Of a DNA stretch of 64,000 bases, positions 1,645 to 47,856 are shown one piece after another. The number at the start of each line of letters is the position of its first letter. Within the stretch, counting starts at the first letter, position 1. The DNA comes from Geosiphon pyriformis uo1. Its lineage: Eukaryota; Fungi; Glomeromycota. The notes under the pieces are model-generated. The model had not been told where the DNA came from. It did not search any database and saw only the letters and a list, made by a program, of their open reading frames with translations. The stretch spans positions 744,001 to 808,000 of the forward strand of contig JAAOMT010000295.1 in assembly GCA_016748015.1 (NCBI GenBank), written 5' to 3'. A program made the position numbers and the translations under genes.

Positions 1645-1728
1645 TTAATCTTAGATCACAGCAAAAATGATTTAACAACCATAAAAACGCATGCAAAAGA
1701 TTCCAAAATAACAGTCAAAATTAAAACA

Positions 1729-2398
1729 ATGATACTTATTCCAGAAAACATCAACAATATAACTCAACAATTCGTTGAAAGCTTACAACAATTAAAATTC
1801 CGATCTAGAAATCACAGTTAATAGCTCCAAAATAACATACATAAAAAGAACAATAGAAAATCCAAAAACAAGAAAAGAACATAATTTTGAACCATATAAT
1901 ATTGCCAAATATAACAACAAATTTATTAGCAAAGTTATTGAAAAATTAGAGATAGCATTGGGCAATACATTAATAATGGAAGAAATAGAAATAAGTGAAT
2001 TAACACCAGACACATTTAGCAACTTGAAAACGAAATTTCCAATTAATTACTGTTATTATCAACTAGGAAAGCACTTGAACATACAAACATTATACTCAAA
2101 AGACTCAACTAGAGTGTTTGACAAAACAACTATCCAACTATTAGAACCTTTCATTGGAAAAACCAACACTACATTCCATTCAAAAACAGTTTACAGAATT
2201 TTCAAAGCATTTGAAAACTGTCAAAAATTATTGTTGGACCCAACCATGAACATAATAACAACCAACAGTATTGGATGACTTACCAACTCGCAATTTCAAG
2301 AATTACAACAACAAATTAATAACACAGTATTGAACCACTATAGTAACTTAGAATTTAATAAAGAAATTAACTTCGATTTCGACGGAGCTCAATCTTGA
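1729..2398 (+). pseudogene. Gypsy A ORF3 (~220 aa, unknown function, env position)
   Basis: MILIPENINNITQQF..., one frameshift near 1800, ORF 1958-2278, ending ...FDGAQS*. Homologous by eye to ORF3 of B, C and D. Confidence 0.75.
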
Positions 2399-2408
2399 AA
2401 GGAGGGGA
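2397..2408 (+). promoter_or_regulatory. Polypurine tract of Gypsy A
   Basis: GAAAGGAGGGGA lies 3 nt before the LTR start TGTTAC. Confidence 0.85.
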
Positions 2409-2411
2409 TAA

Positions 2412-3277
2412 TGTTACGGTTTAAGAATTTAGCAAAAAGAATCATAAAAATAATACAAACTATTCAATCATAATATAGCACAGTAATAATCTTAGAAAGG
2501 TAATGATTAACATAGTAGCAAACATCATCTCGCGATAGTGGCAAGCACCAGTTCACAATAGCAGCCAACACCAACTGGTGATAGCAGCAAACACCAGGTT
2601 GAAATATCAAAAAGAAAGTATTTTCTCATAGAACTACAAACATGTATATATACAGTAGTTTTAATATTGAGAAATAAAAAATCAAGTAATAAAAATCATA
2701 ACTTATCAAGCAACAGATCCAATTTTATCCAACAAACTCCACTTTAAATCATACTTTCAAATTAAATATCCCAAGAAACCTTTAAAATCAAAAAGAAATG
2801 AAAAAGAATATTTAAAACGGAACTATCACAACCCAAAGTATTAAGAAACTTACTTGTATTATTTATTGAATGAAACTATCATTCATTAACTGAATCCCTT
2901 GGAAGAATAATCCTTGATCAAGATTATTCACGTTGTTACTAATTGATAAGAGCTTTATTGTGAGAATTAGAAAAGCGCTAAAGACCATTAACATTTTGTG
3001 TTTCTAGATTAGAGAAACACATCAGGCAATTGCAAGGATAGCCTCAGAGAAGACCCCAGACAGTGGGTAGATTTCAGTTCAGCCTCTGAGAAGGAGTACA
3101 TAAACACACACAACAATCAAGAATTAAAGAATAACTTATATCGCAACAGTAAAAAGAAAGCCTTCAGTGTAACAGTGACATTATCACACAAATAGAATTG
3201 AGGAACTCACGAAAGACTGATTGCAATTAAAGCGGGATATCAGCAATTAAATATAACAAGAAAACCATCCTGTAACA
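2412..3277 (+). repeat. 3' LTR of Gypsy A
   Basis: Starts TGTTAC after the PPT and ends GTAACA exactly where LINE ORF1 homology begins. Contains ~23-bp repeats at 2534-2605 and a TATA-like TATATATA at ~2645. Confidence 0.8.
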
Positions 3278-10169: not shown

Positions 10170-11155
10170 TGTTACTGGAGGTTTTTGGTCTCTTTTCTGT
10201 AATGTTGTTGATGTCTGTTTGCTGTGAATTCACGTTTTTTGGATGTGGTTGAATCTCCAGTAACTGAATTTATCTTCAAATTATCTCTTATAATTTGAAC
10301 TGCTGGGCTTATAAGTGGAATGGCCAATTCTTTGCCAGTTACTTTATGTAGTTACATTGTAGTAAACGTCAACTCTTTCCCAAGAATTGCTCATCTGGAA
10401 GCTCACTAAAAATGTGTAGTTACTTTGCTGTGAAAGTCAACTCTTCTACAAGAATCTTGTCTATAGGCTACCTTGATGATTGTAATAAGAAAAGAAAAGA
10501 AAAATAAAAGAAGTGTAAAAAGAAAAAAAAAATGTTTTATGGAAGTTGTTTCAGATTCAGGCCTGGAAGCATTTTAACAGTTTACTGAAATTGGTAGCTA
10601 GTCAATTTCAAACTGTTTAGTAGAAATTGGTTAATTTCAAGAGAAATAATTAAGAATTTGATTTTTCGAATTATTTGATATTTATTTTGTTTCTGTGTGT
10701 AAAGGATGATTCTAATTGATAATCTCAGGTAAGATAAGATATATTTTTTCGAAAAGAGAAGCTCTTCTTTTATATAATTTGTTGTAACATTATTCTATGA
10801 ACTTGAACTTTGCTATTTTCTACAATTTTGCTGAACTAAAGATACATTTTGGCAAATTACAAGTTATTTCTGCGAACTATTAGATATTTCGGTAAACTAT
10901 CAATTATTTCGGCAAATTTTTACAAATTTCGGTGAACTTTTTGAATGTTACATAGTTCAGGGTATTGCATGATTAATCATTGCAATTAGGTTATATTTGT
11001 GTTATGTACAAATTAGGTTATTAATTAAATGATAATTTCAGATATTTTGCTAATATAATAAGTGATAATTTGAAACAATAATATATGCTAATTAATGATA
11101 GAAATTATAAAGATAATTTCATGCTAAATAATATCTCTAATTTTGTCTGGTAATA
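10170..11155 (-). repeat. 3' LTR of Gypsy B
   Basis: Direct repeat of 19064-20049 with TGTTAC/GTAATA termini. PPT GAGAAGGAGG is adjacent at ~11159-11168. Confidence 0.95.
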
Positions 11156-11843
11156 TAACCTCCTTCTCAAGACTGAGCTCTGTCGAAGTCCAAGTACTGT
11201 CTGTAATTTCCAGATAATAATCCAAAATTATTGAAGAAATTTGGTCTGAAAATTGTTGAAATTTCAGTTCTGTGAGTTTTCCAATGTATTGAATCTTCAA
11301 AGGTTGTAAAATTGGGTTTTGTAGAATGTTTTCACAGGTATAGAATAGGTCATAAAGTCTAAAAGCAGCTCTTAGTTTATAGTGACTGTTTGTAAGTCCA
11401 GCTGTTGTCTTGAATTCATTGTGAATTTGTTTCTGAATAGCTTTTTTTGTGAGGTTTGCTGCTGTAAGTTCCTATTTTCATTCATGAAGTGTTTTTCCAA
11501 TGTAAAAATATCTATATATTGGAGTATAGTCATGGTTTTTTTCATTAAGACACAGTTGAAGTTTTTGTTGAATAGTAGCATTTGGTGGAATACTAATAGG
11601 GATGAGCAATAAGTTTTCTCTTAAAGCAAGCTTTAAAAGTTCTGGTAGATGAATTCCAGAATAACTTCTTGTGTTCTTTTTATAGGGGTGATACTTTCGT
11701 GAATTTGGGGCTAGATTTGTGACTATTTCTGTTTGGGTATAATTAATATGTTTTCCAGTAATAGTAATGGATAATTTAGGCATTGTTTTTAAAGCTAACA
11801 TTAATTTTTGAGATAACTGTTGAATATTTTGAGGGATAGTCAT
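11124..11843 (-). pseudogene. Gypsy B ORF3 (~240 aa), reads through the PPT into the LTR
   Basis: MTIPQNIQQLSQKL...PIYRYFYIGKTL...AAFRLYDLF...IGKLTELKFQQF; two internal stops. Confidence 0.75.
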
Positions 11844-11979
11844 TATAATGAAATTAAAAATAAATTGAAATTATTTTTGGTATGTGGGTTTTTATGTTAT
11901 TTTTGTTTTTTAGCATGCTTTGTTTTGTTTTTGTTGTGAAATTGTTTCTAAATTATAAGGGAATAACTATAGTAAAATT

Positions 11980-13369
11980 GAAATTAAGTGTTCAAGTTGG
12001 GGAGTTGTTTAATGACAACTATTGGTTCTAAGTTTCAGAAAATATCTTTGGGATTGATTAAAAGAGAATGTGTACCAATTTGTGGAATTAATGGTTCAGG
12101 ATTGTTTCTGAAATTATAGTGTTTCAAACAATCTCTATGTGCAACTTTTGCTAAGATTTTGTTATCAAGTCTTAGCTTGTATGATCTGTTGCTTAGAACT
12201 TCATGGATAAAGAATGGTTCATCCCATTTATTTTCAAATTTTCCACTCCATTGTTTTTCAGCTTTAATTCTGTGTAAGAAAACTTTGTTTTCAACTTTAA
12301 ATTCATTGGTGACTGGAGGCAATTTGTTGTTATGCCATTTTTTTTGTTGAGCTTGAAAGTGTTCAATATGGGTGGCTGTTATTCATTGTTTTTCTTTCAA
12401 CGTGCTAAGCAGAGTGTAGGCTCTTTGCTGAAGCATTTCCTGGAAATTGTCTTCATTGATTGGTTGTACTGGGTATGTTTCCACTGTGAAACTAATTGGT
12501 AATGTTGCTGTCCTTCCGTAAGTTAAATCAAATAGTGTGTGTTTTGTGGTATCTTGTTTTAGTGTCCTATATGCTAGTAACACTGATGAAATAAAGATAT
12601 CACATTCTTGCTCAAAATCGGTTGAGATTTTGGTTAATGATTCACACAATGTCCTATTGAAATGTTTTACAAGCCCATTTGTTTGTGGATGATAGGGCAA
12701 AGATAATGGTTTTTTGACATTAAATCATTTACAAATTTCCTGAATTAAATTGTTCATGAAATGTGTTCCTTGATCAGATAAAAGTTCTATTGGGCACCCA
12801 TGTCTACAAATAATGTTTTTGTAAATGAAATTTGCTACTGATTTCACATCTGCTCATTGAATGGTTCTGGCTTCGGGTCATTTGGTGAAATAGTCTACAG
12901 CTACTGCAATATAATGGTTTCCTTGGTTTGTGATAGGTAGTGGTCCGACTAAATCAATACCAACTCGGTCAAAAGGCTGTCCAACTTTGATTGGGTTTAA
13001 TGGTTCTGTAGGGTGAGTTTCTCCTCTTCTTTGACAACTATTACACAACTTAATGTATTCATGGATGTTTTTTCTCATTCAAGGCCAAAAGTAATATTCT
13101 AGTGTTCTCTGGGTGGTGCTGTCTTTTCTTAGGTGTGCTAATGAAGAGTCTGAATGCATGTTATATAAAATGGTTTTTTTTTTATGTTCTTGTATTAATC
13201 TGAGTGGATTGTCTGAGTTTCTGAAGTTTCAATAATAAATTATGTTGTTGTATAAGAAGTATTGTTTGGCTTGTTGTTGTAATCAATGTTTTTTATCTGG
13301 GGACTAATCTGTTGGGATTGTTAATGTCTTCAAATATTGTTTAAGATTGTTGTAGTTTTTGGGGTTTAT
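11980..13369 (-). pseudogene. Gypsy B integrase (separate ORF)
   Basis: ORFs 12878-13078, 12383-12700 and 12035-12322; starts (ATA)NPKNYNNLKQYL. Confidence 0.9.
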
Positions 13370-13418
13370 TGTTTGTTGTTTTGTTGCTGTTAATTTAAAT
13401 AAGTGTTGGTTCTGTTTT

Positions 13419-16400
13419 CTAATCTTGCTTCATTCTTGAGAGACAATCAACGTTGGTGTGGAGTTTTCCTGGTTTGTGGTATACAATGTATTGGTAGTTG
13501 GCTAAAAATTCTGTCCATCAGATTTGTTTTGCGTTCAGTTGGGTGTTTTTGTTCTGAAGCCATTTAAGTCCAATATTATCAGTAATAATATCGAATTCTT
13601 TAAGCCTGAAATAAAGGTTGAAGTAGTGTAGGGCCCAAATTACAGCTGCTGTTTCTAGTTCTGTGGCAGGGTAGTTTTTCTTGGCTGGTTTTAATGTTCT
13701 ACTAGCATAAGCAATTACTCGCTTATTTCTGTTGTCATCTAATTGTAATAAGATAACACCAAAGGCAGTATACAAAGCATCTGTAGCTAGTCAAAATCTG
13801 TTGCTAAAGTCTGAATAAGCAAGAATTGGAGCTGTTGTTAGCTTTTCCTTGAGAATTTCAAAAGCTTTTTGGTGTTTAGTAGTCTATTTGTATTCAATGT
13901 TTTTGGTGGTAAGTTGGTTGAGAGGTTTTGCAATTTTCGAAAATCCTTTGATAAACTTTTGATAGTAGGATGCTAATCCAATGAATTCACTTAATTCTGT
14001 GGTATTTTGAGGAGTTTTGAAATTTTTGACAGTGCTTATTTTTCCTGGATCAGGTTTAATTCTATCTTTGCTAACAATGTGACCAAGAAAGGCCAAACTC
14101 GTTTTTTCGAAGTAGCATTTTTTGATGTTCAGTTTTAATCCTGCTTTTCATAATCATTGAAAAACTTCTCACAGATGTTTTAAGTGTAATTCAAAAGATA
14201 GTGAATAAACATCAGTATCATTAAGATAAACAACTACTGATTTCTAAAGGAGACCTTTGTAAACAACATCCATAAGTCTTTGGAATGTTGCTGGTGCATT
14301 GCATAATCTGAAAGGCATTACGTTAAACTTGTAATTTCCTTCTTAAGTGATAAATGCTGTTTTGGGGCGATCTTTGGGATCCATGGCAACTTGTCAGTAT
14401 TCACTTTTTAGATTTAGTGTTGAAAAGTATTTAGATTTTCCAAGAGCATCTAACATGTCATCAATTTAGGGAAAAGGATAGGCATCTCCAATGATAACAC
14501 TGTTGAGTTGTCAATAATCAACACAAAATTGTATCTTTCCATTTTTCTTTTTAACTAAGACTACAGGTAAGGCCCATGGACTTATTGATGGTTGAATAAG
14601 CCCATTGTTAAGCATCCATTGTACTTCTTCTTGGATAAATTGGTGACTTTCTGGAGCAACTTGGTAGGCTTGTTGTCACCTTGGTTTGGCATTTTCTATA
14701 TAGATTTGGTGTTAAACCAAATCAGTTCTTCCTAAGTCATTGTTGTTTTTGGCAAAAATATTAGCAAATTCTGCAATTAGCTCTTTGAGCTGGTTCTGTT
14801 GTTGTGGTTTAAGTTGTTCTATGTTGATTTGAGATAGTTTTTCTATGACAACATGGTAGTTTTCAGAACTGAAATTTGGGTTGATTTTTGGTAGTGAATG
14901 TTCAATGATTTCCAAGAAATTGGGAACTGTCTGAAGTAATTCTTGTTGAAAGATGTTACTGTGAATAACTCCAATTTCTATGTTATTTAATAAAACTATG
15001 GAGTAACTGTTGGGATTGTAAAAAGTAACTCAAACTTTCTTTGTTCCTTCTGGAATGTAAATATTTGGGATCAAGATATTATGTTCCAAGCAAATTTGTT
15101 TGTTAGACTCAAAAATTTGTTGTGCGGTCATTGGCTTTGGACAGGTGTAGATTTCTGGATGTTCTCCAAAGGGTGAAATAGTAATTGGTTGTGGAAGTCA
15201 TAGAATCTGGTGAGATTCATTTTGTTTGTTAAGAGCTATGTTTACTGGAACTGTGAATCATCCAGTTAAACCAAAACTTTGGGTTCCTCTATCACTTTTT
15301 CTTAATTGTTTTCTTTGATTGACTAATTGCAAACCTGAAATGTTAATTAGGGGTAGGTAAATAGCTTGGGCAATTTTTTCAGCATGTTTGATCTTGAAAA
15401 GTTTATTGGTTTCATTTTGGAGTATTACTGTTATGTCACCAGTATATTCAGCATCGATTATTTTTTTTCTGACATTGATTTCTTTGCTTGCCAGAGAGAA
15501 CCAGAAGGTGATTTGAATCATTGCTCCTGGCAGAATTTTGAGGGCAATTTTGAGATTGATTTTTGTGAGAGATTTGGGTTTAAGAACAAGAGTATTCTTG
15601 CCTGGATATCTTAGGTCATATCCAGCATCAATTTTGTGTGCTTTTTCAGGTTTTATTCCTTGTCTGTTGTTGTTGAAGTATTTGAGTTGTAAGGCAGACT
15701 GGTTTTCAATGAGATAGATGGGTGTTGCTTTAATTTCTTCTGTTGCTTCAGGTTCTTCAAATTCAATTTTGTTTTCATCATTTTCACTGAACAGGGGAAT
15801 GCTAAGAGCATAGCAATTAGGACACCACTGTTCATCACAAGGCATAATGCATTCTTCACATAGCCTAATGTTCATTTGCTCTAATTGTTGAATTTGAGCT
15901 TCTTGGGTTAAGTAAGTGTGATTTACAATTTGGTGGTAGACTTCTACTTCATTTTTGTAATTGAATCCAGCTAATTCCATGGTGTATTCAATGTATTCTG
16001 CTTCCTTCATTTGATAGACATCTTTTTTGGTAGCTTTATTAACTAATGTCATTGCTAGGTCAAAAATCATTTCAGTATCATGAGGGTAGTGATAAAGTTT
16101 GTTGAGAGCACTATTGTATGCCGCATCAAAGAGTGTTCCTCTTTTTACTTTTTCTGAAATTGATAAAGCATATTAACAGGTCTGATCGCAGACTCCTCCT
16201 CTCATTGCTACATCAATCCAATTGCATTCTTCTGGTAGCATATCTCCACAAGTCAAACAAGGGGTGTTGTCACATTTTCTACTTTTTTTTATTAGGTGGC
16301 CCTATTGTTCTCTGTGGCAAGCCTTGTAGTAATAACAAATATGATTTTCATATTCTTCTTCAGGTGAAATGCAGGCTCCTATTGATGAGAATTTCTTGTG

Positions 16401-17300
16401 GCAATCTTTGCATTTGAGTGAAATGTAAGGGCATTGTTTTTATGGTTTTGGTTTTGAATAGGAGACATTCCATCCAGTTGTCACTGGTTCTTTTGTTTCA
16501 AGAGAATCATTTGTTGAAAAATACTGTTGTTCAGTTTCATCAGCCCAATTAGAAGTTGATCCAAGTGCCATAAAGATTTTAATGATGGGCTTTTCTTCTT
16601 CTGGTTCAAATTCAAAAGCCAGGGCTTTTTTGGAGTATTTGTTGAATGTACCACAAGTGGCAGGTACTCGGGCGTGTTGTTCTTGGTAGGAGATTGTTAA
16701 CTCTTGTGTCTTCCAATTCAGATTAGCATTGGCTTTTTGAAGCCAATCATTTCCGATGAGAGCTTGATATTGGGAAGCATCTATGACCAGAACTTTGACT
16801 GGAATAGTGATTCCGTTAATTGTAAATGGGAAGTTGTCAATTTTTCCTACTGGAGTCTTTTTTATGCCATCAGCAGTGACAATGATTGTCTGAGCTGGTC
16901 AGTCAACGTTTCTCTTTAGCTGCTGCATCAATTGATATGTAATGATGCTTCTGGCAGATTCACTGTCTAAGATCAAGCAAATTGGCTTTTCTTTTACTTC
17001 AGTTTCTGTGTACATTGCAGTGATGGCTTTTTGCTCATTAGCTGCTGCATTGCTAAGCAAGAATGGTGATTTATTTGCTTCAAATTCGAAAGGGAATATA
17101 TTTGAAAGGTTGGCATTTTCAGCAATTCTGGCTGGTGGGATTGTGGTAGGAGTATAGGAAGGGTTTTGTTGTTGTGCTGCAGCTCTACCTTCTGAGAGTG
17201 CAGTATGGTAAAAATCTTGTTCTTCTGGTATTGTAAGATAACTAGGTTGAGTATAATAGTGGTTGGGTCTTGGTTGAGCTGAATTTTGGGGGACCAATTG
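13419..17300 (-). pseudogene. pol: Gypsy B pol: protease (ILDSES from LDSGS), Cys-rich domain, dUTPase, RT, RNase H
   Basis: ORFs 16899-17297, 15258-16070, 14712-14915, 13884-14096 and 13518-13775; ends DCLSRMKQD*. Confidence 0.9.
15258..15660 (-). pseudogene. dut: dUTPase domain within Gypsy B pol
   Basis: Trimeric dUTPase motifs I-V in order: DAGYDL, (SR)SLAS, IIDAEYTG, KIAQ, RGTQSFGLTG. Confidence 0.9.
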
Positions 17301-19062
17301 GTTGTTCGAATTGATTCTATTGTTGTTTACTTGGTATTGGTTTTGTGGTGTGAATTGATTTTGTGGAATTAATCTTCAAACAGACACTTGATAATATTGT
17401 GTGGGTGGTTGTTGGTATTGCTGTTGAATTGGCTGTAGGGCAGGCTAATAATAGTTACTTTGATATTGGGGTCTTAGTGGATAGTAAGCTAGTGGTAGTG
17501 GTTGATAATAAGATTGCTGTGGTAAAGGGTAATGTTGATTACTCCTATTTTGTTGGTCTCATTGTAGCTTTCTGCAATCTCTTTTCCAGTGGCCAGAGAT
17601 TCCACAGTAATGGCAATTTTGAGACTGGTTATTAGAAAGTGGTGCAAAGTTATTTTGATTTCGTTTTTAGGGTGGTTGATATCTTTGGAGTTGCTGTTGT
17701 TGTTAGTTGGTGAAATAGTTTTCAACCTTCTTTGTGAGTTGGTCAATTTTCTCCTCAGCTGCTGAGCTGGTTTCTCCAATTGTCAAATTTACAAGTTTTG
17801 TGCAATTGGCCTCTTCCATGGCTATTTTATATCTTTTTGCATGCTGTATGGCAGAGTTTAAATCTTTTGAGACATGTGGGCAAACCTTTTTAATCAGTTT
17901 ATTCTTTAGACCAGCAATAAATTAATCCAAAATTTGAGTGTTCAAGTAATAATCATTGGTTTCTAGTTGACAAATTCTTCTGAGAAGTTTGTTAAACTTC
18001 TTAAGATAAGTTATAACAGATTTGGAGGATTCTTGTTTGATATTGCAAAACCAATTTCGAAGGGTGATAGAAGTATTATTGTTGGTGAACTGTTCAAGAA
18101 AGGCTGCTTTGAAAGTGTCCCAATCATTAAATGGAGTGGCCAAGTTTTCAAACCATTCTTCTGCTGTTCCTTTGAGAAAGTAAGGGATAGTTCTTAACAT
18201 TCTGACAGCATTTCAACCATTCACGTCTCCTGCTTTAGTGACTTGATCAAGCCATTCTTAAAGACTGGTTTCGATGTCCTCTCCTGAAAAGTCAGGAATT
18301 TTTGCAATATAAGTGGAAACCATTTCTTCTTCATTTTCCGAGTCTTCTGTTTCTTGTTCTGATTTGGTCTTTTCACTTTGATTTTCTGCTAAGTAGTCAA
18401 TAAGGTTTGTGCTGGTTAATATTGATTCTTGTTGTTGAATAGGGCTTTTGGGTGACTGAAAATCTTCTATTCTTGAAAATCAAATAAGAGGAGAATTTGG
18501 TATTTGTGGTTGAGCAAGTGAAATTGGAAATGGTGTAATAGAAAGTGGTAATTTGACACTGGTTCCTTGTTCAGGTGTTTGCAAGTGTTTGGCAGTTGTT
18601 TTTGTTAGTATTGAAGTGGTTTTTGAGTGTTGTTTTGTTTTTTGTTTGCCTTTGTTGCTTGTTGCTTGTTTCTGTTTCTGATTCAGAGTTAAAAGAGTAT
18701 TTGGACTGCACTGGATATTTTTCTTCACAATACTTGATAATGTTATAATTGAGTTCTTGAAAGTAGGTGGCAAGTGTTTTACTGTTAAGATCTTCAGTTT
18801 CTAATCGTGAATAGTGCACTAAATTATTGTAGAGATTGCTTCTAACTTCTGAAATGTTGTAATTTTCAAGAAGATAATTGTTGATACAGTTTTCAATATA
18901 TAGGTAAAGTGTTCTCTTGACAATTTCAGTTCCGTCTGAAATGTTAAATTTTTGCTTGCAATGGGTGTAAATTGACTGGTAGTACTCTAGAGTTGCTGTG
19001 TTTGGTGTGGTTGCCACTTTGAATTTTGTTGTTGCTGTGTTATTTCTGTGAGAGAGCACCAA
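17300..19062 (-). pseudogene. gag: Gypsy B gag (retrotransposon gag capsid plus CCHC) with ~240-aa N-terminal extension
   Basis: KIPDFSGED..EWL, YFLKGTAEEWF (17922-18200), CHYCGISGHWKRDC at ~17575-17615, and upstream ORFs 18480-18773 and 18571-19062. Confidence 0.85.
19047..19061 (-). promoter_or_regulatory. Primer-binding site of Gypsy B
   Basis: TGGTGCTCTCTCACA starts 2 nt inside the 5' LTR end. Confidence 0.75.
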
Positions 19063-19063
19063 A

Positions 19064-20049
19064 TATTACCAGAGGTTTTTGGTCTCTTTTCTGTAATGTT
19101 GTTGATGCCTGTTTGCTGTGAATTCACTTTTTCTGGATGTGGTTAAATCTCCAGTAACTGAATTTATCTTCAAATTATCTCCTATAATTTGAACTGCTGG
19201 GCTTATAAGTGGAATGACCAATTCTTTGCCAGTTACTTTATGTAGTTACGTTGTAGTAAATGTCAACTTTTTCCCAGGAATTGCTCATCTGGAAGCTCAC
19301 TAAAAATGTGTAGTTACTTTGCTGTGAAAGTCAACTCTTTTACAAGAATCTTGTCTATAGACTACCCTGATGATTGTAATAAGAAAAGAAAAGAAAAATA
19401 AAAGAAGTGTAAAAAGAAAAAAAAAATGTTTTATGGAAGTCATTTTGGATTCAAACCTAAAAGCATTTTAACAGTTTACTGAAATTGGTAGCTAGTCAAT
19501 TTCAAACTGTTTAGTAGGAATTGGTTAATTTCAAGGGAAATAATTAAGAATTTGATTTTTCGAATTATTTGATATTTATTTTGTTTCTGTGTGTAAAGGA
19601 TGATTCTAATTGATAAATTTCAGGTAAGATAAGATATATTTTTTCGAAAAGAGAAGCTCTTCTTTTATACAATTTGTTGTAATACTATTCTATGAACTTG
19701 AATTTTGCTATTTTTTACAATTTTGCTGAACTAAAGATACATTTGGTGAACTACAAGTTATTTCTGTGAACTATTAAATATTTCGGTAAACTATCAATTA
19801 TTTTGGCGAATTTCTACAAATTTCGGCAAACTTTTTGAATGTTATATAGTTCAGGATATTGCATAATTGATCATTACAATTAGGTTACATTTGTGTTATG
19901 TACAAATTGGATTATTAATTAAATGATAATTTCAGACATTTTGCTAATGTAATAAGTGATAATTTGAAATGATAATATATGTTAATTAATGATAGAAATT
20001 ATAAAGATAATTTCATGCTAAATAATATCTCTAATTTTGTCTGGTAACA
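19064..20049 (-). repeat. 5' LTR of Gypsy B
   Basis: Direct repeat of 10170-11155. Confidence 0.95.
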
Positions 20050-22743: not shown

Positions 22744-25020
22744 TTTTTTTTTATTAAAGTTTAATGAGCAAAGCCCAACTACTATTTAATATAATATAAT
22801 TATATAAGGTCTTAAATTAAATGTGACTTACATATTTTCTATATGTAATCAGCTATTTAAGCCAATTTAGGCTATATTACATTGATGCATCCAAAGAAAA
22901 CTTACTTAAAAATGATATCTTTTGAATAACAAAAAACAAAGTAGCATTGCAAGAAACCAATTCAACCAGTCATTTGGCTGTCTTTAAAACATCAGTTTTA
23001 ATATCAATAGATTCATGTTCCTAAAGAGACATCAAGTTAGAAAACACTTTATTATCCAAACCAACTGAGTGCTCTAAATCACCAAACATATTAATATCTT
23101 CTATGCAGCACTCTTTTTTTAAAAAAAGCACTTCTCTTCCTAATTTACCAACAACTTTACTAAAGGAACTCATATGCATCATAATCTTATTGACTTTAAG
23201 ACCAAGTTTACTACTTGAGACCAAATTTTTATTAATAAATTGTTCAAACAATTTGACCAAAAAACCAACTGGCTTAACAATAGACTCAACCAAAGCAAAA
23301 AGCTTGACCAAATCAGACTCCAAAAAAGCCAACCAAGAAAACACCAAGGAATTACTAATGACTATAAAAAAAAAAATAGAAACTGCCAAGAGAAGAAATT
23401 CAGAAGAATTCAGAAAAGCAGAAATCTTAGCATACAAAACACCACTAACAAAATGTGTTTTAAATATCTTAAGAATCTTAAGAAAGGAAGATAAAAAGAC
23501 TTTACAGTCTACAGCCAAATGACCTATTTCTTAATACTTAAAGCAGCACCAACAACCAAAAGTTTCCCACCAAATGCAGCACTTTCTTAAGATATTAGTT
23601 TTAACAACCACAGAATTCAAATCAACTTGGGAACCAAACATAATTAGAGCAAACTGAGAACAACATCCAGAATTAGGCAAATGAGGAATGAAACAAGTCT
23701 GGCCATCAACTTGGGAGATCATATTACTAATTTCAAAGACAGTACAGCCAGAAAAAAAATTGATCAACTTGGCCTTAAACCAATCATGAAACAAAATTGT
23801 CTTATTTTGATTGACAAAGGAAAGAATTCAAACATTATTTTTGCTTACCAAAATTAATCAGTGAGTAAGAACAAATGCAGCAGTATTCAATCCTTTAAAG
23901 TAAACAATTACATATTGCCAAACACCAGCAGACTTTAGCACAACACAAAAAACTTCACCAAAAATACCAAGAGCTGACTTAATATCAACAACAAACATAC
24001 CCAAAGACACATTATGCAGTACAACAGCAGCAGAAGAAAAACCAGATTTAGAAACCACCAAAAACTTGGCAATTTTGAGAGTGGCAAAGCAAACAGAGCT
24101 TGTAAGCTCAATTAAAAATACAGCATTCAAAAAACTTTGGAAAGCAAACTCAACACAAAAGAGTTTCACATTGTTCTTAAAAACAGATTTTGCATTCAAG
24201 AAACCATTTATAGACTAAAAAACAGTCTTAATATGAGCCAATTTGATCTTAAAAGTAGCATTAAACACCAGAGTGGAGGCCACTCATCCAGCAAACTTTT
24301 GACAACTAATAATGATTTTCCAAGCATTATCAGTGGCAGCACCAAAAACCAAAGAAAATGATTCAGCTTCTATTTGATCAGTCCAGTTCTTAAAAACAGA
24401 TAACATCATAGAAGATGATTGTTTTGCTTCTAAAACTGATAATAATCTACCACATTTGACAATGCAGTCAGTGGTTGATTTTGGCTCATCTTGAATAATG
24501 TGCTAGATGATGTTATAGAGATTTCACCCAAAATTTTATTAGAAACCACAAAGAAGTTTAGTATAATAATAGCAGAGGCAAGTGACTGCTCTTACTTTTC
24601 TGAACTTTTGGTCTTTTTGACTATTTTTTTTAAAGAGATGGTGCCAGTAGTACCAGGTATTAAAGCTATAGAAGAAAAAACCAGCTTGTTTACTGGTCTA
24701 TTATTAAAAACTTTTAGGCTCTTAATTAGAGTAAAAGCAACACTAAAACTAACCCAAGTATGTCTTTTTAAGAGAACTTTGACTGGTGAAAGACCAGCCA
24801 AAAATGAAAAAGTTGTTTTAGTAGCTACTAAAGACAGTTTTTTATGATTACTGAATAAAAAAAGGCTTCTAAAACGTTCTGCTTAGTTGCTTCTACAACA
24901 GAGAAAGCTCTTCTGGTTGAAATTTTATTAGATATCTCAAAAAAGATATTAGATACAGCTTTTTTACTCTTTGCTCTGATTGTGGTCATAAAATTAAGAA
25001 GATAAAGAGTATATAACTAT
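22744..25020 (-). mobile_element. ORF1-only (HAL1-like) non-autonomous retroposon, copy 2, with a LINE1-type 3' tail
   Basis: Degenerate ORF 24989>22877 is homologous along its length to 58644-60899. No ORF2. The 3' UTR matches LINE1 5718-5838. Poly-T at 22744-22752. No TSD is readable. Confidence 0.8.
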
Positions 25021-25553
25021 TATTTTCTTATAATTATTTCTTAAAATATTTAACAAATATTTTAAAAATTAATAATATTAAAAATAATTTCTAATTTGTT
25101 TATAATAATTATTAAAATTAAATTATTTATATTTAAAAAAAACTATAACTTTAGTAATTAATACATAAAATTATTATTTTATAAAAAAATGCAAAAAATT
25201 ATTTTGGAATTTACTTGAAGCTTTTAAAATAAGCTTTAAAAGAAAACATTATATTTATTTTTATTAATATTTTTCTAAATATTACAATTTAATAAATATT
25301 TTAACAGTATTTTAATAAATAAAACAATGAATATACTTTTATTTATAAATATTTTTATATTAAAAAAACACTTCATAAAAAAAAATAAAACTTAAATTAA
25401 CAAATATTTTTTTTAAAACTATTAATAAACAGATTTGCAATAATTTAATACTTATTACAAAATTAAAACAATTTTTAAATTTTATAATTTATTTAATATT
25501 TGTAAAAATATCTTACAAAATCTAATACTATAATTATTAAAGATTTAATATAT

Positions 25554-27623
25554 TATTACAGATTAAAGTAACAAGCTAACAGATAGCAAAAGAGAACATA
25601 ATTATATAATAATAGAATTAATCAAAGAGAATTCAACTTTAAGCAGTGAATTGAATAAGTATGAATTCAATATGCAAGATTGGTTTCATAAAATATTTTA
25701 ATTACTATTCTTTTCAAAAGATAACTGGAGAATTTGAAGATAGAGATATAGTCTGTACTGTTAACAAATAATAACACACTGATATAATTCTATGTCTTAT
25801 GTTAACATTCTTAGAATTTAATATTAGATATTAGATATATTCTTTAGTCATATTTTATTCAATAATCTTTAAATATTATAATTATTCAAGTCAGAAAAAG
25901 GGTAAGTAAATGCCAACAAATAATCTTTTATTTCAAAATGTTTAGATACTTAAAGATAAAGAAAAAGAAATTAGCAAAAAGAAAAAGATTGAAATGAAGT
26001 TGTTATTTTATTTCTTTGCTTTTGTTGATTTGTATATTTTTTTCTATAGCTAAAAGATCTATTAATTATATAGTTATTAAAAATAGTCAATAATCAAATC
26101 AGCAATTAAGTCAATAATTAAGTTAATAATCAAATTAATAATCAGATTATTGATCAAATCAATAATCAAGTTAATAATCAGATTAACAGTTAAATTATTA
26201 ATTAGATCAATGATTATTATCTAAAAATATAATGGCTAATTATATAATATCAATGACTAATACATGTAATAACTAATAAAAAATATGAATTTCAACTATA
26301 ATATTATTCTTTTCAAAAAGATTAAGCTCTGACAAAATCAAATTATTTATGGGATATTTTATCTAAAGAGTTTTATATAACTTAAAGCTAACTAGTTTGT
26401 CAAAGTTTTTTGTGAATAAGGTATATAATACCTAAGGCAAAATAAGTTTTGTATTTAAAAGACCAAATTTTTGTATAAAAGTTTTGGCTCTTTTAGCAAT
26501 GATTAAAACTTTTAAGATATCTAATTATATAATGTTCAAAATTTTCACTTGTATTTTTGAAGTTGTTTTCTTTAAAAGCTTTATATCTTTTATGATTTCA
26601 CTAAAATTATTATAAAGTTTTAGTTGTCTTTCATATAACAAGTTTTTGTCTATGAACAAGATTTTTTTAATTGTTTTTCCAATTGTAATGAAAAGTAAAA
26701 ATATTACTGCTGTTATACTTTTTAGTAGATATTTATTTATTTTGTTACCAATTTTTTTTCTTCTAATAATGGTTTTTTTTGGTCTAATAACAATATACTA
26801 TTATCAGTTATAATGGTTTGTTTTCTAATAATTAAAGTAACATTTGGATAGTTTTTGATCCAAAATTCATGAAAAGTATAAAAAGCATTTTGAATGTTTG
26901 ATCCAAGAAATAATTATTCATGTTAATTGAAAATACTTCTGTTTTAAAAATAGTGTATTTATTTATATCTAATTTTTGCTGATCATTTGGGTCAGTATTA
27001 TTACAACAAGTAACCAATCAGATTATTTGTAATATTTCTTGAATCATATATTATAAACAGAATGATTATTAAAGATTGTTCTATATTGATCTTGTAGAAT
27101 ATAAGAATCATTTTTCAAAACTTTGTTGACTAAAAAAGATCTTTTCTACTGATTAGAAAACTTATTATTATAGACATTGTTTCTGTTTAAGTATTATTTC
27201 AAAACTAAGTTACTAATACTTAAAGAAAGTGTTTTATAAGTTTTTTTTTTCTTAAGCTTTTCTTGGAACTGTTTTATTTTTTCAAAGAAAATTATTCATG
27301 TTTTTACTAAGAAGTCAAGAATAATATCAAGTCTTCTTTGCAAAATGTCTTTGTAATTTCCTATTGTGATTTTTTCAAAGAGTATTGTCTTAATATTAGT
27401 TTTTTTTGATAGAATTGCCATTTATCTATAAAGCAAATAAAAAAGTTTATAACTAGTTATGTCATAATTTACAGTTTTATAAACAAACAAGACTAAAGGC
27501 AGTACTTTGTCTTATAAGTTTGTTTCTTTACTGGTTTTGGCCAATGTTTTACATAGTGTTCTGTTAAAATGTTCTACTAGACTATTTGTTTGAAAGTGAT
27601 AAAAAGAAGAGAATTTATAATAT
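25554..27623 (-). mobile_element. Gypsy family D copy D-3: 3' LTR (25554-26303), ORF3 and integrase C-terminus, heavily decayed
   Basis: Colinear with 31053-32214 and with 52840-54813. Confidence 0.85.
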
Positions 27624-28774: not shown

Positions 28775-31052
28775 AAGAATCTTGTTTAACTCAAAGCTAA
28801 CTAGTTTATTAAAGTCTTTGGTGAATAAGGTATATAATATTTGAGGTGAATGAGTTTTGTATCCAAAAGATCAAATCTTTGTATAAGAGTTTTGGCTTTT
28901 CTAGCAATAGTTAAAACTCTTGGAATATTTAACCATATAATATCCAAAATTTTTGCTTGTATCTCTGAAGTTGTTTTTTTTATGAATTTTATATCTTCTA
29001 TGATTTTACCAAGGTAACCATAGAGTTTTAATTGTTTTCCATATACCAAGTTTTTGTCTATAGATAAGATTTCTTGAAGTGTTTTTCCAATTGTGTTGGA
29101 AGATAAAAATATAGCTACTGTTATACTTTTCAACAAATATTTATTCATTTTGCTACCAATTTTTTCTCTTTTGGTAGTGGTTTTCTTGGATCTAATAACA
29201 ATATGTATTCTATTGTTATCAGTTATGGTGGTTTGTTTTCTAATAGTCAAAATAACATTTGGATAGTTTTTAATCTAATATTTATAAAGAGTATAAAAGA
29301 CATTTTAAATGTTTTGATCCAAGAAATAATTGTTCATGTTAATTGAAAATACTTCTGTTTTAAAAATAGTACATTTATATATATATAATTTTTGCTGATT
29401 ATTTGGGTTAGTATTATTATAACAAGTAACCAATCAGATTATTTGTAATATTTCTTGAGTTGTGTATCATAAACAGAACAATCATTGAAGATTGTTCTGG
29501 ATTGATCTTGAAGAATATAAGAATTATTGTTCAAAACTTTATTGACTAAAAAAGGTTCTTTTTACCAGCTAAAGAATTTATTACCATAGATATTGTCTCT
29601 GTTTGAATGATATTTCAATACTAAATTTTCAACACTTAAGAAAAGTGTTTTATAAGTTTTCTTTTTTTTAAGCTTTTTTTGGAACTGTTTTATCTTTTTA
29701 AAGGCAATTATTCATGCTTCTACCAATAAGTCAAGAATAGTACCAAGTTTTTTTTGCAAAATGTCTTTATAATTCCCTATTGTGATTTCTTTAAAAGATA
29801 TAGTTTTAATATTAATTTCTATTAGTAGTATTGTTATATATCTATAGAGTAAATAAAAAAATTTATAACTTATTATGTTATAATTCACAGTTTTATAAGC
29901 AAACAAAGCTGAAGACAATATTTTGTTTTATAAATTTGTTTTTTTACTGGTTTTGGCTAAGATTTTACATAGTGTTCTATTGAAATGTTTCACTAGGTTA
30001 TTTGTTTAAGGGTGGTAAAAAAAGGAAAGTTTATGATATATTCATATTTTTTACAAAGTTTTTTAACCAGTGTACTGAAAAAAGCTTTTTCTCTATCAGA
30101 TAAAAGTTCTTTGAGACAGTCATAATAGCAGATGATATTTTTATAAATGAAATTGGCTATTAAGACTGCTGTTTAGTCTAAAGTGGCTCTTGCTTCTATC
30201 CACTTTATAAGATAGCTGGTAGCTGTAATAATGTATTTATTGCTCTTAAGAGTTATTGTTAAAGATTTAACAACATCTATACCAATTTTGTCAAATGGTT
30301 AACCAACAAAAATTGGATGGATATTTTTTTTTGATTGGATTTGTCTTTTTTTTAACAAGTATTACAGGTTTTAATGTATTTAGCAATGTTTTTTCCCAAA
30401 GTAGGCCAATAATAGCAAGCTAAAGTTTTTTAAATTGTTTTTGTTTTTCCAAAATGTCCAACTAATAGATCAGTGTATATGTTGTATATTACAATTTCTC
30501 TTTCTTTAAATCTAATGATTCTTTGGGAGCAGTCAAAATTTTTTTTATTTTTTTTGTAAAGTTGGTTCTGACAGATCAAATAGAAATTTGATTGTTTGGG
30601 TAAATGTTTTTTTTGCTGTTAAGTGTATTCTGGTGGGTATTGTTTTTTATTCAAAAATTTTATTAAGACAGAATAGTTGTCTAAGTCTATTATTGTGTTT
30701 GTTTATGAAGGAGTTACTAATAATTAAGTTGATTTGGTTAAGAGATTGTACTATCACTGAATGGTAAGTCTGAAAAGAATATTAGCATTTTGATAATTAG
30801 CTCTTTTACAATGTTGAATATTATAGTCAAATTTATCCAGATAAAGTATTTAGTGATTTATTTGTTTATGTTTCAGCTTCTTTTTGTTGTGCAGCCAAAC
30901 CAAGACTTGATGATCTGTTACTATTAAAAATTTCACACCAAGAAGATATTAATTCTAATAACTAGTAGTCCAAACTACTGCTAAGTATTTTTGTTTAGTA
31001 ACTGAATAGTTTTTTTCTGCTGGTATAAGAGTTCTACTAACATATATTATAG
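28775..31052 (-). mobile_element. Gypsy D copy D-2: RNase H end, integrase and ORF3; no 3' LTR; interrupted by copy D-
   Basis: Colinear with 51805-54075; ORFs 28801-29250 and 29712-29918. Confidence 0.85.
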
Positions 31053-31719
31053 TGTTATGGGTTGGAATAACAAGCTAATGGATAGCAAGAGAGAACAGGA
31101 TTGTAGGATGATGAAAGGAATCAAAAAAAATTCAACTTCAAAGAGCAAATTGAATAAGTATGGATTCAATGTGTGAGATCAGTCTCATAAAATATCTCAG
31201 TCACTATACTTTTCAAAGATAACTGAAGAATCTGAAAGTAGAAGAATAGTCTGTACTGTCAACAAATAATCACACACTGATATAATTCTATGTCTTATGT
31301 TGGTGCTCTTAGAATTCAATATCAGATATCAGATATACTCTTCAGTCATGTTTTATTTAATAATCTTTAAATGCTGCAATTACATGTTTCAGGAAAAGGG
31401 TAAGAAATAACCAACAAATAATCTTTTATCCCAAGATGTTTGGATACTTGAAGGTAGGGAAAAAGAAATTAGCAATAAAAGAATGATTAAGATGAAAGTT
31501 GTTATTTTATTTATTTTATTTTTTTGATTTCTACATGCTTTTCTACAGCTAAAAGATTTATCATTTATATAGCTATCAAAAGTGGTCAATAATCAGGTCA
31601 ACAGTTAGGTTATTGATCAGATCAATGATCACTTTCTAAAAATAGAGTGGCTAATTTATATGACATTAGTGGCTAATACATGTAATATTTAATAAGAAGT
31701 ATAAGTTTTAACCATAACA
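31053..31719 (-). repeat. 3' LTR of copy D-
   Basis: TGTTATGG...CCATAACA, with PPT (TGGAGAGGATGA) at 31720-31731. Confidence 0.93.
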
Positions 31720-32214
31720 TCATCCTCTCCAAAGAGATTAAGCTTTGGCAAAATTAAGCTATTTATGGTGTAATCTATTTGAAGAGTTTTATCGAACTCA
31801 AAGCTAATTAGTTTGTTGAAGTCTTTTGTGGATAGAGTATATAACACTTGAGGTGAAATAAGTTTTATATCCAAGAGACCAAATCTTTGTATTAGTGTTT
31901 TGGCTTTTCTAGCAATAGTTAAAACTCTTGAAATATCTAGCCATATAATGCCCAAAATTTCTGTCTGTATCTCTAAAGTTGTTTTCTTTATGAGTTTTAT
32001 ATTTTCTATGATTTTTCTAAGGTGATCATAGAGTTTTAATTGCCTTCCATATGACAAACTTTTGTCTATGGGCAAGATTTCTTGAATTGTTTTTCCAATT
32101 GTGCTAGAAAGTGAGAGTATAGCTGTTGTTATACTTTCTAACAGATATTTATCCATTTTGCTACCAATTTTTTTTCTTCTGGTAGTGGTTTTTTTAGATT
32201 TAATAACAGTATAT

Positions 32215-33082
32215 TGTTACAAGTGATTATTTGGGATTTTAAATCAAATAACAAACCTGTAACTTGGTGCTCAAAAGCTGTTTGTGTTCGATGGTAATCT
32301 AAAGATTTTGTAATCTAAAGGTTTGGTTGGAGTTCTTTGTATAATAGACAGAGATTCAATAGTTGTTTTATTTGTAGCTTCCCAGAATTACAATTCTGTC
32401 AATTTTTCTTTTGGCATAGTGGCCGGCAATCTTCTGATAAGTATTCCATATCTACTGTACGTGTCCTACCCACTTGTAGAAGTCTTTTACCAGGCAATCC
32501 TTGACATCAGTAATTCAGCGCTTTAATCCTTAATCAGTTAGTATTCCACAAGAAAAATCAATAAAGAAAAAAAATAAAAGAAAATAAGAAAATAAAGAAA
32601 TAAGAAAATAAGAAAATAAGAAAATAAGAAAATAAGAAAATAAGCCAAGGCAATATGCAAGTTAGTATTTGTCAATAGCCATGATCAAGAGCTATTGTTC
32701 CAGTGTGATTAAGTATCAATTGCTATCAACATGAAGTGTTGATAGTGAAGAGTGAATTTGAATAGTAGATAATTTATTTATTTAATATTGGTGGATGGGA
32801 GATTTCTAACTAAAAGATTCTGTTCTTTTTACTTCTAATGCTATCACTATATATACATAATTAATGTTCTATAAAATCGCTTACATTTCCAAGCAATGTG
32901 CTATGATTTCTTGAACAATGCTCACATTGCTGAGCAATGTGCCATGTTTTCTGACATTGCTCCACATTGCTAAGCAATATGCCATAATTTCTAACATTGC
33001 TCCACATTGCTGAGCAATACTCATGTGCTAAATACTATTCTCTTATTGGTCTGCTATATCTGTTTTCTTTTTATGAGTAATA
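32215..33082 (-). repeat. 3' LTR of Gypsy C, containing a (GAAAATAA)n tract and ~40-bp U3 repeats
   Basis: Direct repeat of 41537-42329. PPT AAAAGAAGGAGATAA at 33083-33097. Confidence 0.93.
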
Positions 33083-33099
33083 TTATCTCCTTCTTTTAA

Positions 33100-33745
33100 T
33101 ATTAAGCTCTGTCGAAATCTTTATTTTAAATTAATTCTAATACTTTTTTTTCAAGTATTGTTTGTTCGACTCTGTTCTTCATGTCTTTTACTTGTGTATT
33201 GTTTATTCTTTCCTATTGGTTAATAGTTATGGTTTTCATGTCAGAGTATAACAGTATTTCTGGATAGTTTTGAAATATGTTGTGCAGTCAATAAATTGTT
33301 CTCACATGTAGTGTTGAATTTGTTTTCTTTCCGATAAATTCTTCAATTTGTTGTATTATGTCTTGGTTGAATATTCTCTTGAATTTGTCAATATACAACT
33401 CCTGAATATTCAACTTTTGACCTAATTGGTAGTAGCAATATGATATTGGAAGTTGTTCTGTTTATTGCTTCCAATTTTCTTTTGTAAGTTCTTCTGTTAA
33501 TGCCATTATAGGTATTTTCCCAAAAGTGTTCTTTACTTTTTCTATTATGTTGTCTGACCAGTTTTTATCATTCTTTGGTACTCACTGATATGGTGTATTC
33601 TTTGTCTTTCTTTTGGTGTTTTGATAGCAAATTGTTTGGTTGTTAACAATAACTTTCATGTTTAAAAATTGTTGACTTAAGACCTGGAATAATTGTTGAG
33701 CTATAGTGTGAATATAATCTGGTATTTCTATTTTTCTTAGTTGCT
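33100..33745 (-). pseudogene. Gypsy C ORF3
   Basis: IPDYIHTIAQQLFQVL...LPISYCYYQLGQKLNIQELY...IEEFIGK; a close homolog of A ORF3 (PINYCYYQLGKHLNIQTLY...LEPFIGK). Confidence 0.75.
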
Positions 33746-33779
33746 TTGTTGCATATACTGTGTCTTTATATACTCTTCG

Positions 33780-35170
33780 GTTTGTTCAATTTGACGTGTT
33801 TGGTTCAATAACTATGATTGGTTCCAGATCTTGTAGAATCTCATTTGGTTGAACTAGTATTCATTGTACTCCCAACTGTGGAATGGTATTAGTAGATGAT
33901 AATGCTATTTGGTGATATGGTTTTAGTCGATCATCATGTGCTGCTTTGGCTAAAATTTTGTTGTCCCATCTTAATTTATAAGCTCCATTTCCTAGAATTT
34001 TTTCTATGTGAAATGGTCCATTCCATTTGAGGTCAAATTTTCTACTCCATTGTTTTTCCGCTTTGGTATGATGTAGAAGTACTTTGTCTCTAATTTTGAA
34101 TTCAACTGGTTTATCTGATAATTGGTTATCGTGTTGTGCTTTTTGCTTTTCTTGAGATTTTTGAATGTTATCAGCTGCTTTTTGTTATCTGTTTTCTAGT
34201 GTTTCCATTAGGTCATATGTTCTTCTCAACAATATTTCTTGAAAATTAGCTTCTATTATTGGTTTTGTTGAATATGTGCTGACCTCTCTCTCAACTGGTA
34301 ATGTTGCTGTCTTACCATATATTAATTCAAATAATGTTGCTTGTGTAGTATCTTGTCTCATTGTTCAATAAGCAAATAATACTGATGGTATAAACAAATC
34401 CCATTTGTTCTGGTTTTTTTGGCTGAGTTTGGCGATTGCTTCACACAATATTCTATTAAATCTTTTAACTAAACCATTTGTTTGTGGATAATATGGTGAT
34501 GATAGTGGTCTTTTAATTCCGAATTTTTGGCTCAATTCTGCTAGTGTTCTGTTCACAAAGTGAGTTCTTTGGTCTGATAATAATTTTTTTAAACATCCAT
34601 GTTGACAAATCAAGTCTTGATGAATGAATTTGGCAACAAATTCTGCATCCACTTTTTGAATTGCTTTTGCTTCTGGCCATTTAGTGAGATAGTCCATAGC
34701 TACTGCAATATATCTATTTCCTCTGCTGGTAATTGTTAATGGTCTGACTAAATCAATTCCAATGTGATCAAATAGTTGTCCTACTTTGATTGGTTTTAAT
34801 GGTTCACTGCGTTTTGTTCTTTCTCTTCTTTGACAAGCATCACAATTTTGGACATATTAGATAATGTTTGGATACATTGATGGCCAATAATATTTTTTTC
34901 TGGTTCTTTTCATGATTGTTTCTTTGTGCAAATGTCCTGCTGTTGGATCTGAGTGCATGTTGAACAGTATTGTTTCTTTCTGTGGTTCTGTAACTACTCT
35001 GGTTGGTTGGTCTGGTTTTGTCTATTTTTCTGGTAAAGTATATTTTGATGATTGATAAAATATTTTGATTGTTGCTTAATGCTATTTCGTTCATTTTAAG
35101 ATAATTTCTTCTTGAACTGTTGGGTAATTATATAATATTAAAGCTGTTGGTATTTTTGTGTGTTTATCTT
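33780..35170 (-). pseudogene. Gypsy C integrase (separate ORF)
   Basis: ORF 34365-34697 (DYLTKWPEA, SDQRTHF, PQTNGLV) and a WNGPFHI tail. Confidence 0.9.
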
Positions 35171-35228
35171 TTGTTATATTTTCATTGGGTTTGGTTTGGT
35201 TTTGTTATATTTTTGGGTTGAAATGTTT

Positions 35229-38200: not shown

Positions 38201-39350
38201 TCCACTTGTCTTGGCATTTTGGATATCCATAGCATTCACGGTGGTATGGTTTGTAATAGTAATAAGTGCATGTCCAGTAGTCTTTGTCTGGCACAATCCA
38301 AGCTTCTATTGAGAACAACTTCTTGTTGCAGTCTTTACACTTGAGAGGAATATGCAGTGGCTCTGGTGGTTTCATTGGTTTCAAGTCAGTTTTCTTTCTT
38401 TTCTTTCTTTTTTTCTTGATTGCTTTCTTTCCACCCTCAGGTTGATGGGTCTTCTTGATTGTTGTTGATTTTCCAGACTCGGTTAGTGTTCCAGATAAGT
38501 TCTTCTTTTCCTTTTTCTTTTTCTTGGTCATTGTCATCCCAGGCAAGTATTGGCGGCAGTTTGTTGTAGTTGACATCAGCTCACGACACTTGGTATGCTT
38601 TCCAAGTGGGTTTTGGCTTCTCTTCCTCCAAGTCAATTAGTGGGGCTGGCATGTGACTGGGTTTGAAATGGCCACATGTTGCTGGTACTTGTGTATGTCA
38701 GCCATTTTGGCTAAGTTGCAACTCTTGAGTGGTCCAATCGAGGATAGTATTTGTTTTGGTGAACCAGTTATTACCAACTAGCACTTGGTACTAAGTGGCT
38801 TCCATAACTAGTACTTTAATTAGGATAATTATGCCATTGACTTCTATAGAGAAGTTATCAATTTTACTAATAGGGGTTTTGGTTGCTCCATTGGCAGTGA
38901 TGATTCTTGTGCTGGCAGTTCGATCAACTCAGTGACCTAATTGATCTATGAGTTGTCTTGTGATAATGTTGCCAGCTAATCCACTATCTAAGATTAGTTT
39001 GATGGGGTGGTCATTGACTTTTACATCAGTATACATTGTCATGATGAATTTTTCTTCTAGGGCGGCTCTACTGAATAGTAATACTGTTGTGGTTTTTTCG
39101 AGTTTGAAAGGGAATATAGCAGCCAATGTTTCGTTATTGGTGATGGTGGCTGGAGATATGTTGTTGGTAAGTGCTGGTTGTCGATTGGCTTCTGAGTTGT
39201 GGGAGGTGGCATCTTCTGGAGTAACCAGGAGACTTAAATAGTGTTGGGAATTCTGATTTTGGGTGAAATTGGTGCCCAAATTCTGTTGATGAGATTCAGA
39301 TTGTTGTGTTGATGAACTGGGGATCAGTTGGTAAACTATCATTGCCAATC
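35229..39350 (-). pseudogene. pol: Gypsy C pol: PR, Cys-rich domain, dUTPase, RT, RNase H
   Basis: ORFs 38929-39348 (LILDSG), 36507-38636 (709 aa) and 35502-35807; RT motif YLDN (from YLDD) at ~36020-36031. Confidence 0.9.
37058..37450 (-). pseudogene. dut: dUTPase domain within Gypsy C pol
   Basis: NAGFDL, ASRSNL, GIINTRY, KIAQ, RGIQGFRSTG. Confidence 0.9.
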
Positions 39351-41500: not shown

Positions 41501-41517
41501 TTCTCTGTAGAATTATA

Positions 41518-41534
41518 CCTCACAAGGAGCACCA
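41518..41534 (-). promoter_or_regulatory. Primer-binding site of Gypsy C
   Basis: TGGTGCTCCTTGTGAGG next to the 5' LTR. Confidence 0.8.
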
Positions 41535-41536
41535 AA

Positions 41537-47833: not shown

Positions 47834-47839
47834 TAAAAG

Positions 47840-47856
47840 TGGTGCTTCCTGTGAGG
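47840..47856 (+). promoter_or_regulatory. Primer-binding site of D+
   Basis: TGGTGCTTCCTGTGAGG, nearly identical to the PBS of C. Confidence 0.8.

What the first reader, a model, noticed from the sequence alone, without database searches (positions are those of the whole stretch)
1729..2398. Conserved ~220-aa non-env ORF3 between integrase and PPT in all four Gypsy families
Seen: A 1729-2398, B 11124-11843, C ~33100-33745 and D 53522-54177 (plus three more D copies) each have an extra sense ORF in the env position. A, B and C align by eye: IPxxI..I/LxQ, then P(I)xYxYyxL/IGxxL, then R(I/L)xxxFxxC, then IGxLTxxxFQ in A and B. D shows the same pattern distantly (YGYLGKII..ARRTKTL..LSTKDFNKL). 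No signal peptide, transmembrane segment or furin site is visible, so it is not a classical env. Inference: retention across families whose LTRs are unalignable suggests an ancient accessory protein, possibly nucleic-acid binding, anti-silencing, or involved in movement in a coenocyte. The function is unknown.
Basis: partly seen in the sequence, partly recalled or inferred. Interest (0 to 1): 0.8.

Follow-up and report, generated by a model that had tools for sequence, protein, structure and literature searches.

The report
Third gene of fungal Gypsy retrotransposons
Three of four jumping-gene families in this fungal DNA carry decayed copies of the same unnamed extra gene, predicted to encode a soluble helical protein that likely binds the element's own terminal repeat to keep it switched on; the fourth family has an extra gene in the same place whose kinship could not be shown.

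The parts
1729..2398 (+). ORF3 of family A (pseudogene: frameshift near 1797-1799, TGA at 2276-2278)
   Evidence: residues 1-199 open in Geosiphon protein P0003
277..1644 (+). Integrase of element A (decayed; separate from RT-RNase H)
1680..1687 (+). TATA-like box 49 nt before the ORF3 ATG (candidate internal promoter)
2385..2411 (+). Conserved pre-PPT DNA motif and polypurine tract of A
2412..3174 (+). 3' LTR of A; three 23-bp motif repeats at about 2543-2605, upstream of a TATA box
11124..11843 (-). ORF3 of family B (2 internal stops); ends about 30 nt inside the 3' LTR
11889..11896 (-). TATA-like box 53 nt before the B ORF3 ATG
10170..20049 (-). Element B, LTRs 94% identical; 20-bp repeat array in the LTR at 10865-10932 and 19741-19803
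33102..33731 (-). ORF3 of family C (ATA at the start, 5 internal stops)
33765..33772 (-). TATA box 41 nt before the C ORF3 start
32215..42329 (-). Element C, LTRs 83% identical, dUTPase-bearing pol; 40-bp repeat array in the LTR at 32883-33018
53522..54177 (+). ORF in the same slot in family D (frameshift, 3 internal stops); homology to A-C not shown
53476..53483 (+). TATA box 46 nt before the D ORF ATG
47191..54813 (+). Element D, LTRs 88% identical; 12-bp repeat array at 54235-54282
31692..32213 (-). 3' part (174 open codons) of a D ORF copy split by element C; its 5' part lies at 42330-42490
28800..29337 (-). D ORF copy
26260..26960 (-). D ORF copy, eroded
25020..25560 (+).

Best explanation
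ORF3 of families A, B and C is a conserved accessory gene of a clade of Geosiphon-type Ty3/Gypsy retrotransposons, predicted to encode a soluble helical protein that likely binds a family-specific motif array in its own LTR and so likely activates, or protects from methylation silencing, the element that encodes it. SHOWN: homology across A, B, C, further Geosiphon lineages and metagenome proteins; the position between integrase and 3' LTR; no env features; a TATA-like box before the start; motif arrays in each LTR; strong CpG depletion. PREDICTED: an N-terminal helix plus beta-hairpin, a basic flexible linker and a seven-helix core. INFERRED, in falling order of strength: (1) ORF3 has its own short mRNA from an internal promoter; (2) the core is a distant ParB/KorB-like helix-turn-helix unit, with helices 126-141 and 146-160 around the conserved G-[KP]-[TN]-N turn; (3) the variable start of helix 146-160 reads each family's own motif; (4) binding raises transcription or blocks silencing.
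Confidence: 0.4

Rival explanations
1. ORF3 is an RNA-binding accessory factor that coats, exports or packages the element's genomic RNA, as CERV does for Cer1.
Against: Those matches cover only the first half of the core. Atlas recognition scores (2035, 2184) are below the tool's 2300 mark. No zinc knuckle or RRM was found.
Confidence: 0.2
2. ORF3 acts by protein-protein contact, inhibiting a host silencing component or bridging the stand-alone integrase to chromatin, and binds no specific nucleic acid.
For: Acidic pI of the intact metagenome copies; all-helical core without a catalytic motif; ORF3 changes faster than integrase (20-40% against 53-63% identity). Accessory TE proteins have many predicted host contacts (PMC13547354, passages).
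Against: No partner was identified. The conserved residues cluster in the helix-turn-helix-like segment.
Confidence: 0.25
3. The D ORF is a very distant member of the same family, so the first reader's four-family claim is right.
For: Same slot, same TATA spacing and same pre-PPT motif. By eye, the order of elements looks collinear with the model. The D integrase is the outgroup (44-45% identity), so more divergence is expected. The D frame stays open for 175 codons in one copy.
Against: All statistical tests are at chance level. The D profile has only 4 decayed copies, so power is low.
Confidence: 0.45
4. ORF3 is an env-like fusion or movement protein.
For: Position only.
Against: No hydrophobic segment or furin site in 12 of 12 proteins; globular helical model; no env family hit in Pfam for 58 members.
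Confidence: 0.02
5. ORF3 is a passively carried, functionless capture or a chance frame.
For: All window copies of A-C are broken; among D copies the synonymous excess is weak (p 0.02-0.55).
Against: Frame-specific protein homology at 20-40% identity across lineages, an intact copy in L001 and a confident fold. Gag-pol of these copies is equally broken.
Confidence: 0.04

Closest known systems
Additional ORFs of Ty3/Gypsy elements: fungal 'add. ORF' (PMC2864245, passages) and plant sense aORFs (PMC7264820, first third of the text)
   Same: Extra ORF of unknown function between pol and the 3' LTR, kept in most copies of a family.
   Different: This protein family has no Pfam match and no transmembrane segment, follows a stand-alone integrase gene and has a candidate promoter of its own. 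Whether it is among the add. ORFs of PMC2864245 was not checked (supplement not read).
Foamy-virus Tas/Bel1 (PMC4929722, passages)
   Same: About 250-aa accessory protein encoded before the 3' LTR, made from an internal promoter, binding the LTR. A functional analogy only.
   Different: Homology was not tested. Tas also binds its internal promoter, whereas the LTR motifs here do not recur there. No binding or activation is shown here.
VANC anti-silencing proteins of VANDAL DNA transposons (PMC5735166, abstract; PMC13547354, passages)
   Same: TE-encoded protein with family-specific tandem motif arrays as targets in a methylating host. An analogy.
   Different: VANC resembles the plant MAIN protein and is encoded by DNA transposons; no such match appeared here.
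ParB/Spo0J/KorB helical DNA-binding domain; Pfam DUF1016_N (YhcG N-terminal domain, PMC1189080, passages) and DUF3102
   Different: Below every significance mark; no nuclease or CTPase domain attached; eukaryotic retroelement context.
CERV of C. elegans Cer1 (PMC10309623, abstract)
   Same: Non-env accessory protein of a Gypsy-type element.
   Different: CERV comes from a spliced mRNA and exports RNA; no homology was tested.

Membership tests
Ty3/Gypsy LTR retrotransposon (host element) | LTRs with TG...CA ends, PBS, PPT, domain order PR-RT-RH-INT, target-site duplication | tested here: met
   for B, C and D; A is cut by the window start
Additional ORF (ORF3) of Gypsy elements | Conserved sense ORF between integrase and 3' LTR, shared by many copies and lineages | tested here: met
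   for A, B and C
This ORF3 family, for element D | Significant sequence or profile similarity to A-C | tested here: inconclusive
   chance-level scores with a shallow D profile; D was not folded
Retroviral or errantiviral env | Transmembrane anchor and furin cleavage site | tested here: not met
   (12 of 12 proteins); model
Retroviral or errantiviral env | Signal peptide | tested here: not met
   no hydrophobic N-terminal stretch by hydropathy; no dedicated predictor was run
ParB/KorB-like helix-turn-helix domain | Shared fold at significant Z | tested here: inconclusive
ParB/KorB-like helix-turn-helix domain | Profile similarity to HTH_ParB members | tested here: inconclusive
   chance level, but the bacterial families score as weakly against each other in this set-up (E 0.03-0.6)
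DUF1016_N (PF17761) | Pfam gathering score 32.8 bits | tested here: not met
   best 14.6 bits
DUF3102 (PF11300) | Pfam or profile match | tested here: inconclusive
   not among the 25 of 60 Pfam families shown; profile score at chance; BFVD rank 13, E 1.8
Tas-like or VANC-like regulator (works like) | Own internal promoter and transcript | tested here: inconclusive
   TATA-like box in A, B, C and D but not at that distance in L001; no transcript data
Tas-like or VANC-like regulator (works like) | Sequence-specific binding to its own LTR motif, and activation or demethylation | not testable with these tools
   candidate arrays exist; binding needs experiments

The most novel reading that the evidence does not exclude
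A clade of fungal Gypsy retrotransposons, including family D, carries a ParB/KorB-type DNA-binding domain of bacterial or phage kind as a self-promoted third gene. Its recognition helix co-evolves with motif arrays in each family's LTR, giving a family-specific transactivation or anti-silencing system in an LTR retrotransposon that converges on foamy-virus Tas and plant VANC.
Probability: 0.2. Interest if true: 0.8.

Novelty: new variant of a known kind. Interest (0 to 1): 0.5.

Why it matters
LTR elements expanded strikingly in Geosiphonaceae (PMC11952901, passages), yet this window shows heavy CpG loss. An element-encoded, family-specific regulator would explain how they escape silencing, and it gives a direct test: several ORF3 variants, each beside its own LTR motif array, including an intact protein and LTR from one locus. 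If the regulator reading fails, the result is still an unnamed protein family with a confident fold model, behind more than 200 'hypothetical' Geosiphon gene models that are really transposon genes.

Tried and rejected
No genome is held for this window, so copy-level dN/dS across the genome was not possible. Pfam: no family for A, B or C and one chance-level hit for D; PHROGs: only weak hits, best E 0.0012 to a family of unknown function. PDB sequence searches: 0 hits and 4 at E about 0.9. Foldseek against PDB and BFVD: none at E<=1e-3; the VIA second look added nothing. Closterovirus coat protein, the Atlas lead, was not among the fold rows shown; this is inconclusive. Phage records: no match. 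Viral contigs: no motif match and no relative of P0165 or of D. RNA: no RNA holder was listed for window 11000-13300. Between-family dN/dS of 0.19-0.58 was rejected as evidence, because chance alignments with D gave equally low values by the same method. The permutation test has low power on dead copies: the D integrase control showed no synonymous excess (p 0.81 and 0.84). The shared ending seen in A and C is explained by a DNA motif before the PPT that is read in different frames in B, D and L001, so it is a cis signal and not a protein motif. The stretch 4739-5143 matches the eroded B-like copy by blastn but is too AT-eroded to call. Oligomeric state was not tested and D was not folded. Literature: no paper held 4 of the 5 terms LTR retrotransposon, ParB, helix-turn-helix, ORF3, gypsy; searches listed no description of this family. 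The library lacks most subscription papers, and no supplements were read.

Full report
SETTING. The window is an AT-rich stack of nested, decayed LTR and LINE elements. No genome is held. All 6 homologues of A and all 120 listed of 207 homologues of B are named Geosiphon pyriformis hypothetical proteins, so the host is that fungus or a close relative (inference). Elements B (10170-20049, minus), C (32215-42329, minus) and D (47191-54813, plus) have paired LTRs, PBS, PPT and 4-bp target duplications; A is cut by the window start.

OBSERVATION. An extra sense frame lies after the integrase in all four families at the stated coordinates, but the copies are decayed. A has a frameshift and one stop, B two stops, C an ATA start and five stops, D a frameshift and three stops. 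A and C stop at the PPT; B and D run about 30 nt into the LTR. A, B and C are homologous: tblastn A-C 1.8e-21 and A-B 1.7e-7, in the ORF frame only; a B-family HMM built from 75 proteins finds A at 2e-13 and an unlisted eroded B-like copy at 25020-25560, but not C or D. D fails every test: at most 1.8 bits against a 25-sequence HMM, hhalign probability 0.1-0.4%, pairwise scores inside the shuffle range. By eye D looks collinear and it shares the cis signals, so I leave its membership at about 0.45.

FAMILY. A profile of A, B and C found 78 representatives at E<=1e-3 among 1.84 billion proteins. Sources are known for 25 of the 78: 22 Geosiphon and 3 unnamed metagenome proteins; 53 were not looked up. 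They add two more Geosiphon lineages, and 36 of 78 carry an integrase piece or the peptide encoded by the pre-PPT motif, which places them in the same slot. A search with the three metagenome proteins gave 8 hits among 2811 candidates, all unnamed. A scan of JGI metagenomes for the pre-PPT DNA motif gave one locus, L001: RT-RNase H, a stop, a separate integrase frame with one TGA, a gap of about 300 nt, an intact 230-aa ORF3 (P0165) running into the LTR. Its organism is unknown. ORF3 identities are 20-40% and integrase identities 53-63%, A and C are closest in both, and the D integrase is the outgroup at 44-45%. The Atlas's first hit for P0165 is an unnamed 98-member Mucoromycota cluster (0.94, a lead only).

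SELECTION. A context-preserving permutation test gives 45 synonymous of 154 changes against 33.8 expected for B versus its eroded relative (p=0.0025; other frames 0.69 and 0.96). Six D comparisons give p=0.02-0.55, and the D integrase control shows no excess, so the test is weak on dead copies. Between-family dN/dS is biased by protein-guided alignment and is not used.

CIS ANATOMY. A TATA-like box lies 41-53 nt before the ORF3 start in A, B, C and D (5-11% of shuffles each; background 2%). The pattern was chosen after viewing, the strict form holds in C and D only, and L001 lacks it at that distance. Each LTR has an array of its own short motif just upstream of its TATA box; the motifs do not recur before ORF3. 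CpG observed/expected is 0.12 in the window, and the target duplications of B and C differ at positions consistent with CpG decay.

MECHANISM. The most economical reading is a self-promoted gene for a nuclear, sequence-specific DNA-binding protein that acts on its own LTR array, as Tas does (internal promoter, LTR binding; PMC4929722, passages seen) or as VANC does (family-specific tandem targets; PMC5735166, abstract seen). I give this 0.4. Rivals are a protein-contact inhibitor or integrase tether (0.25), an RNA export or packaging factor like CERV (0.2; PMC10309623, abstract seen), a functionless passenger (0.04) and env (0.02). Binding, expression and localisation are untested.

COMPARISON AND NOVELTY. 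Extra ORFs in this slot are known in fungi (PMC2864245, passages) and plants (PMC7264820, first third read). YhcG's N-terminal domain was described as helical and unassigned (PMC1189080, passages). AM-fungal TE surveys note the LTR expansion in Geosiphonaceae; the passages seen do not mention this gene (PMC11952901). Searches listed no description of the family; supplements of PMC2864245 and PMC11952901 were not read and may bear on this. The scan's earlier notes describe unnamed fungal Gypsy ORF3s in other genomes, but sequence look-ups with P0014 and P0165 found no look-alikes.

VERDICT. A real, unnamed accessory gene family shared by three of the four families and by elements elsewhere; D unproven; function inferred only. 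New variant of a known kind, interest 0.5; 0.8 if the LTR-binding regulator reading holds.

Noticed in passing
window 32215-42329 inside 31692-42490: Element C inserted into the ORF of a D copy, splitting it; its 4-bp target duplication reads ACAT/ATAT, B's GCAT/GTGT and D's CTAG, consistent with CpG-centred sites that later decayed.
   Followed up: partly
window about 225-277 and L001 2921-2942: Integrase is a separate frame behind a stop after RNase H in A and in the near-intact L001 element.
   Followed up: partly
window 15258-16172 and 36507-38636 (minus): Elements B and C carry a dUTPase domain in pol.
   Followed up: no
window 2385-2398, 11169-11180, 33098-33109, 54121-54132; L001 609-622: A DNA motif just before the PPT is shared by all families and read in different frames, so it is probably a cis signal for plus-strand priming or transcription.
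   Followed up: partly
window about 3014-3190 (A LTR): All six Geosiphon gene models of family A join ORF3 to the same downstream piece of the LTR; this is either a real spliced form or a gene-prediction artefact.
   Followed up: no
window 4700-5800 and 25000-25560: Extremely AT-eroded remnants, one clearly a B-like ORF3, show much stronger decay than neighbouring copies.
   Followed up: partly
window 43996-47039 and 48809-51849: Two D elements lie back to back in opposite orientation, giving long inverted repeats.
   Followed up: no
window 56900-62900 (minus): A decayed LINE-like element: RT, endonuclease and zinc-knuckle fragments.
   Followed up: no
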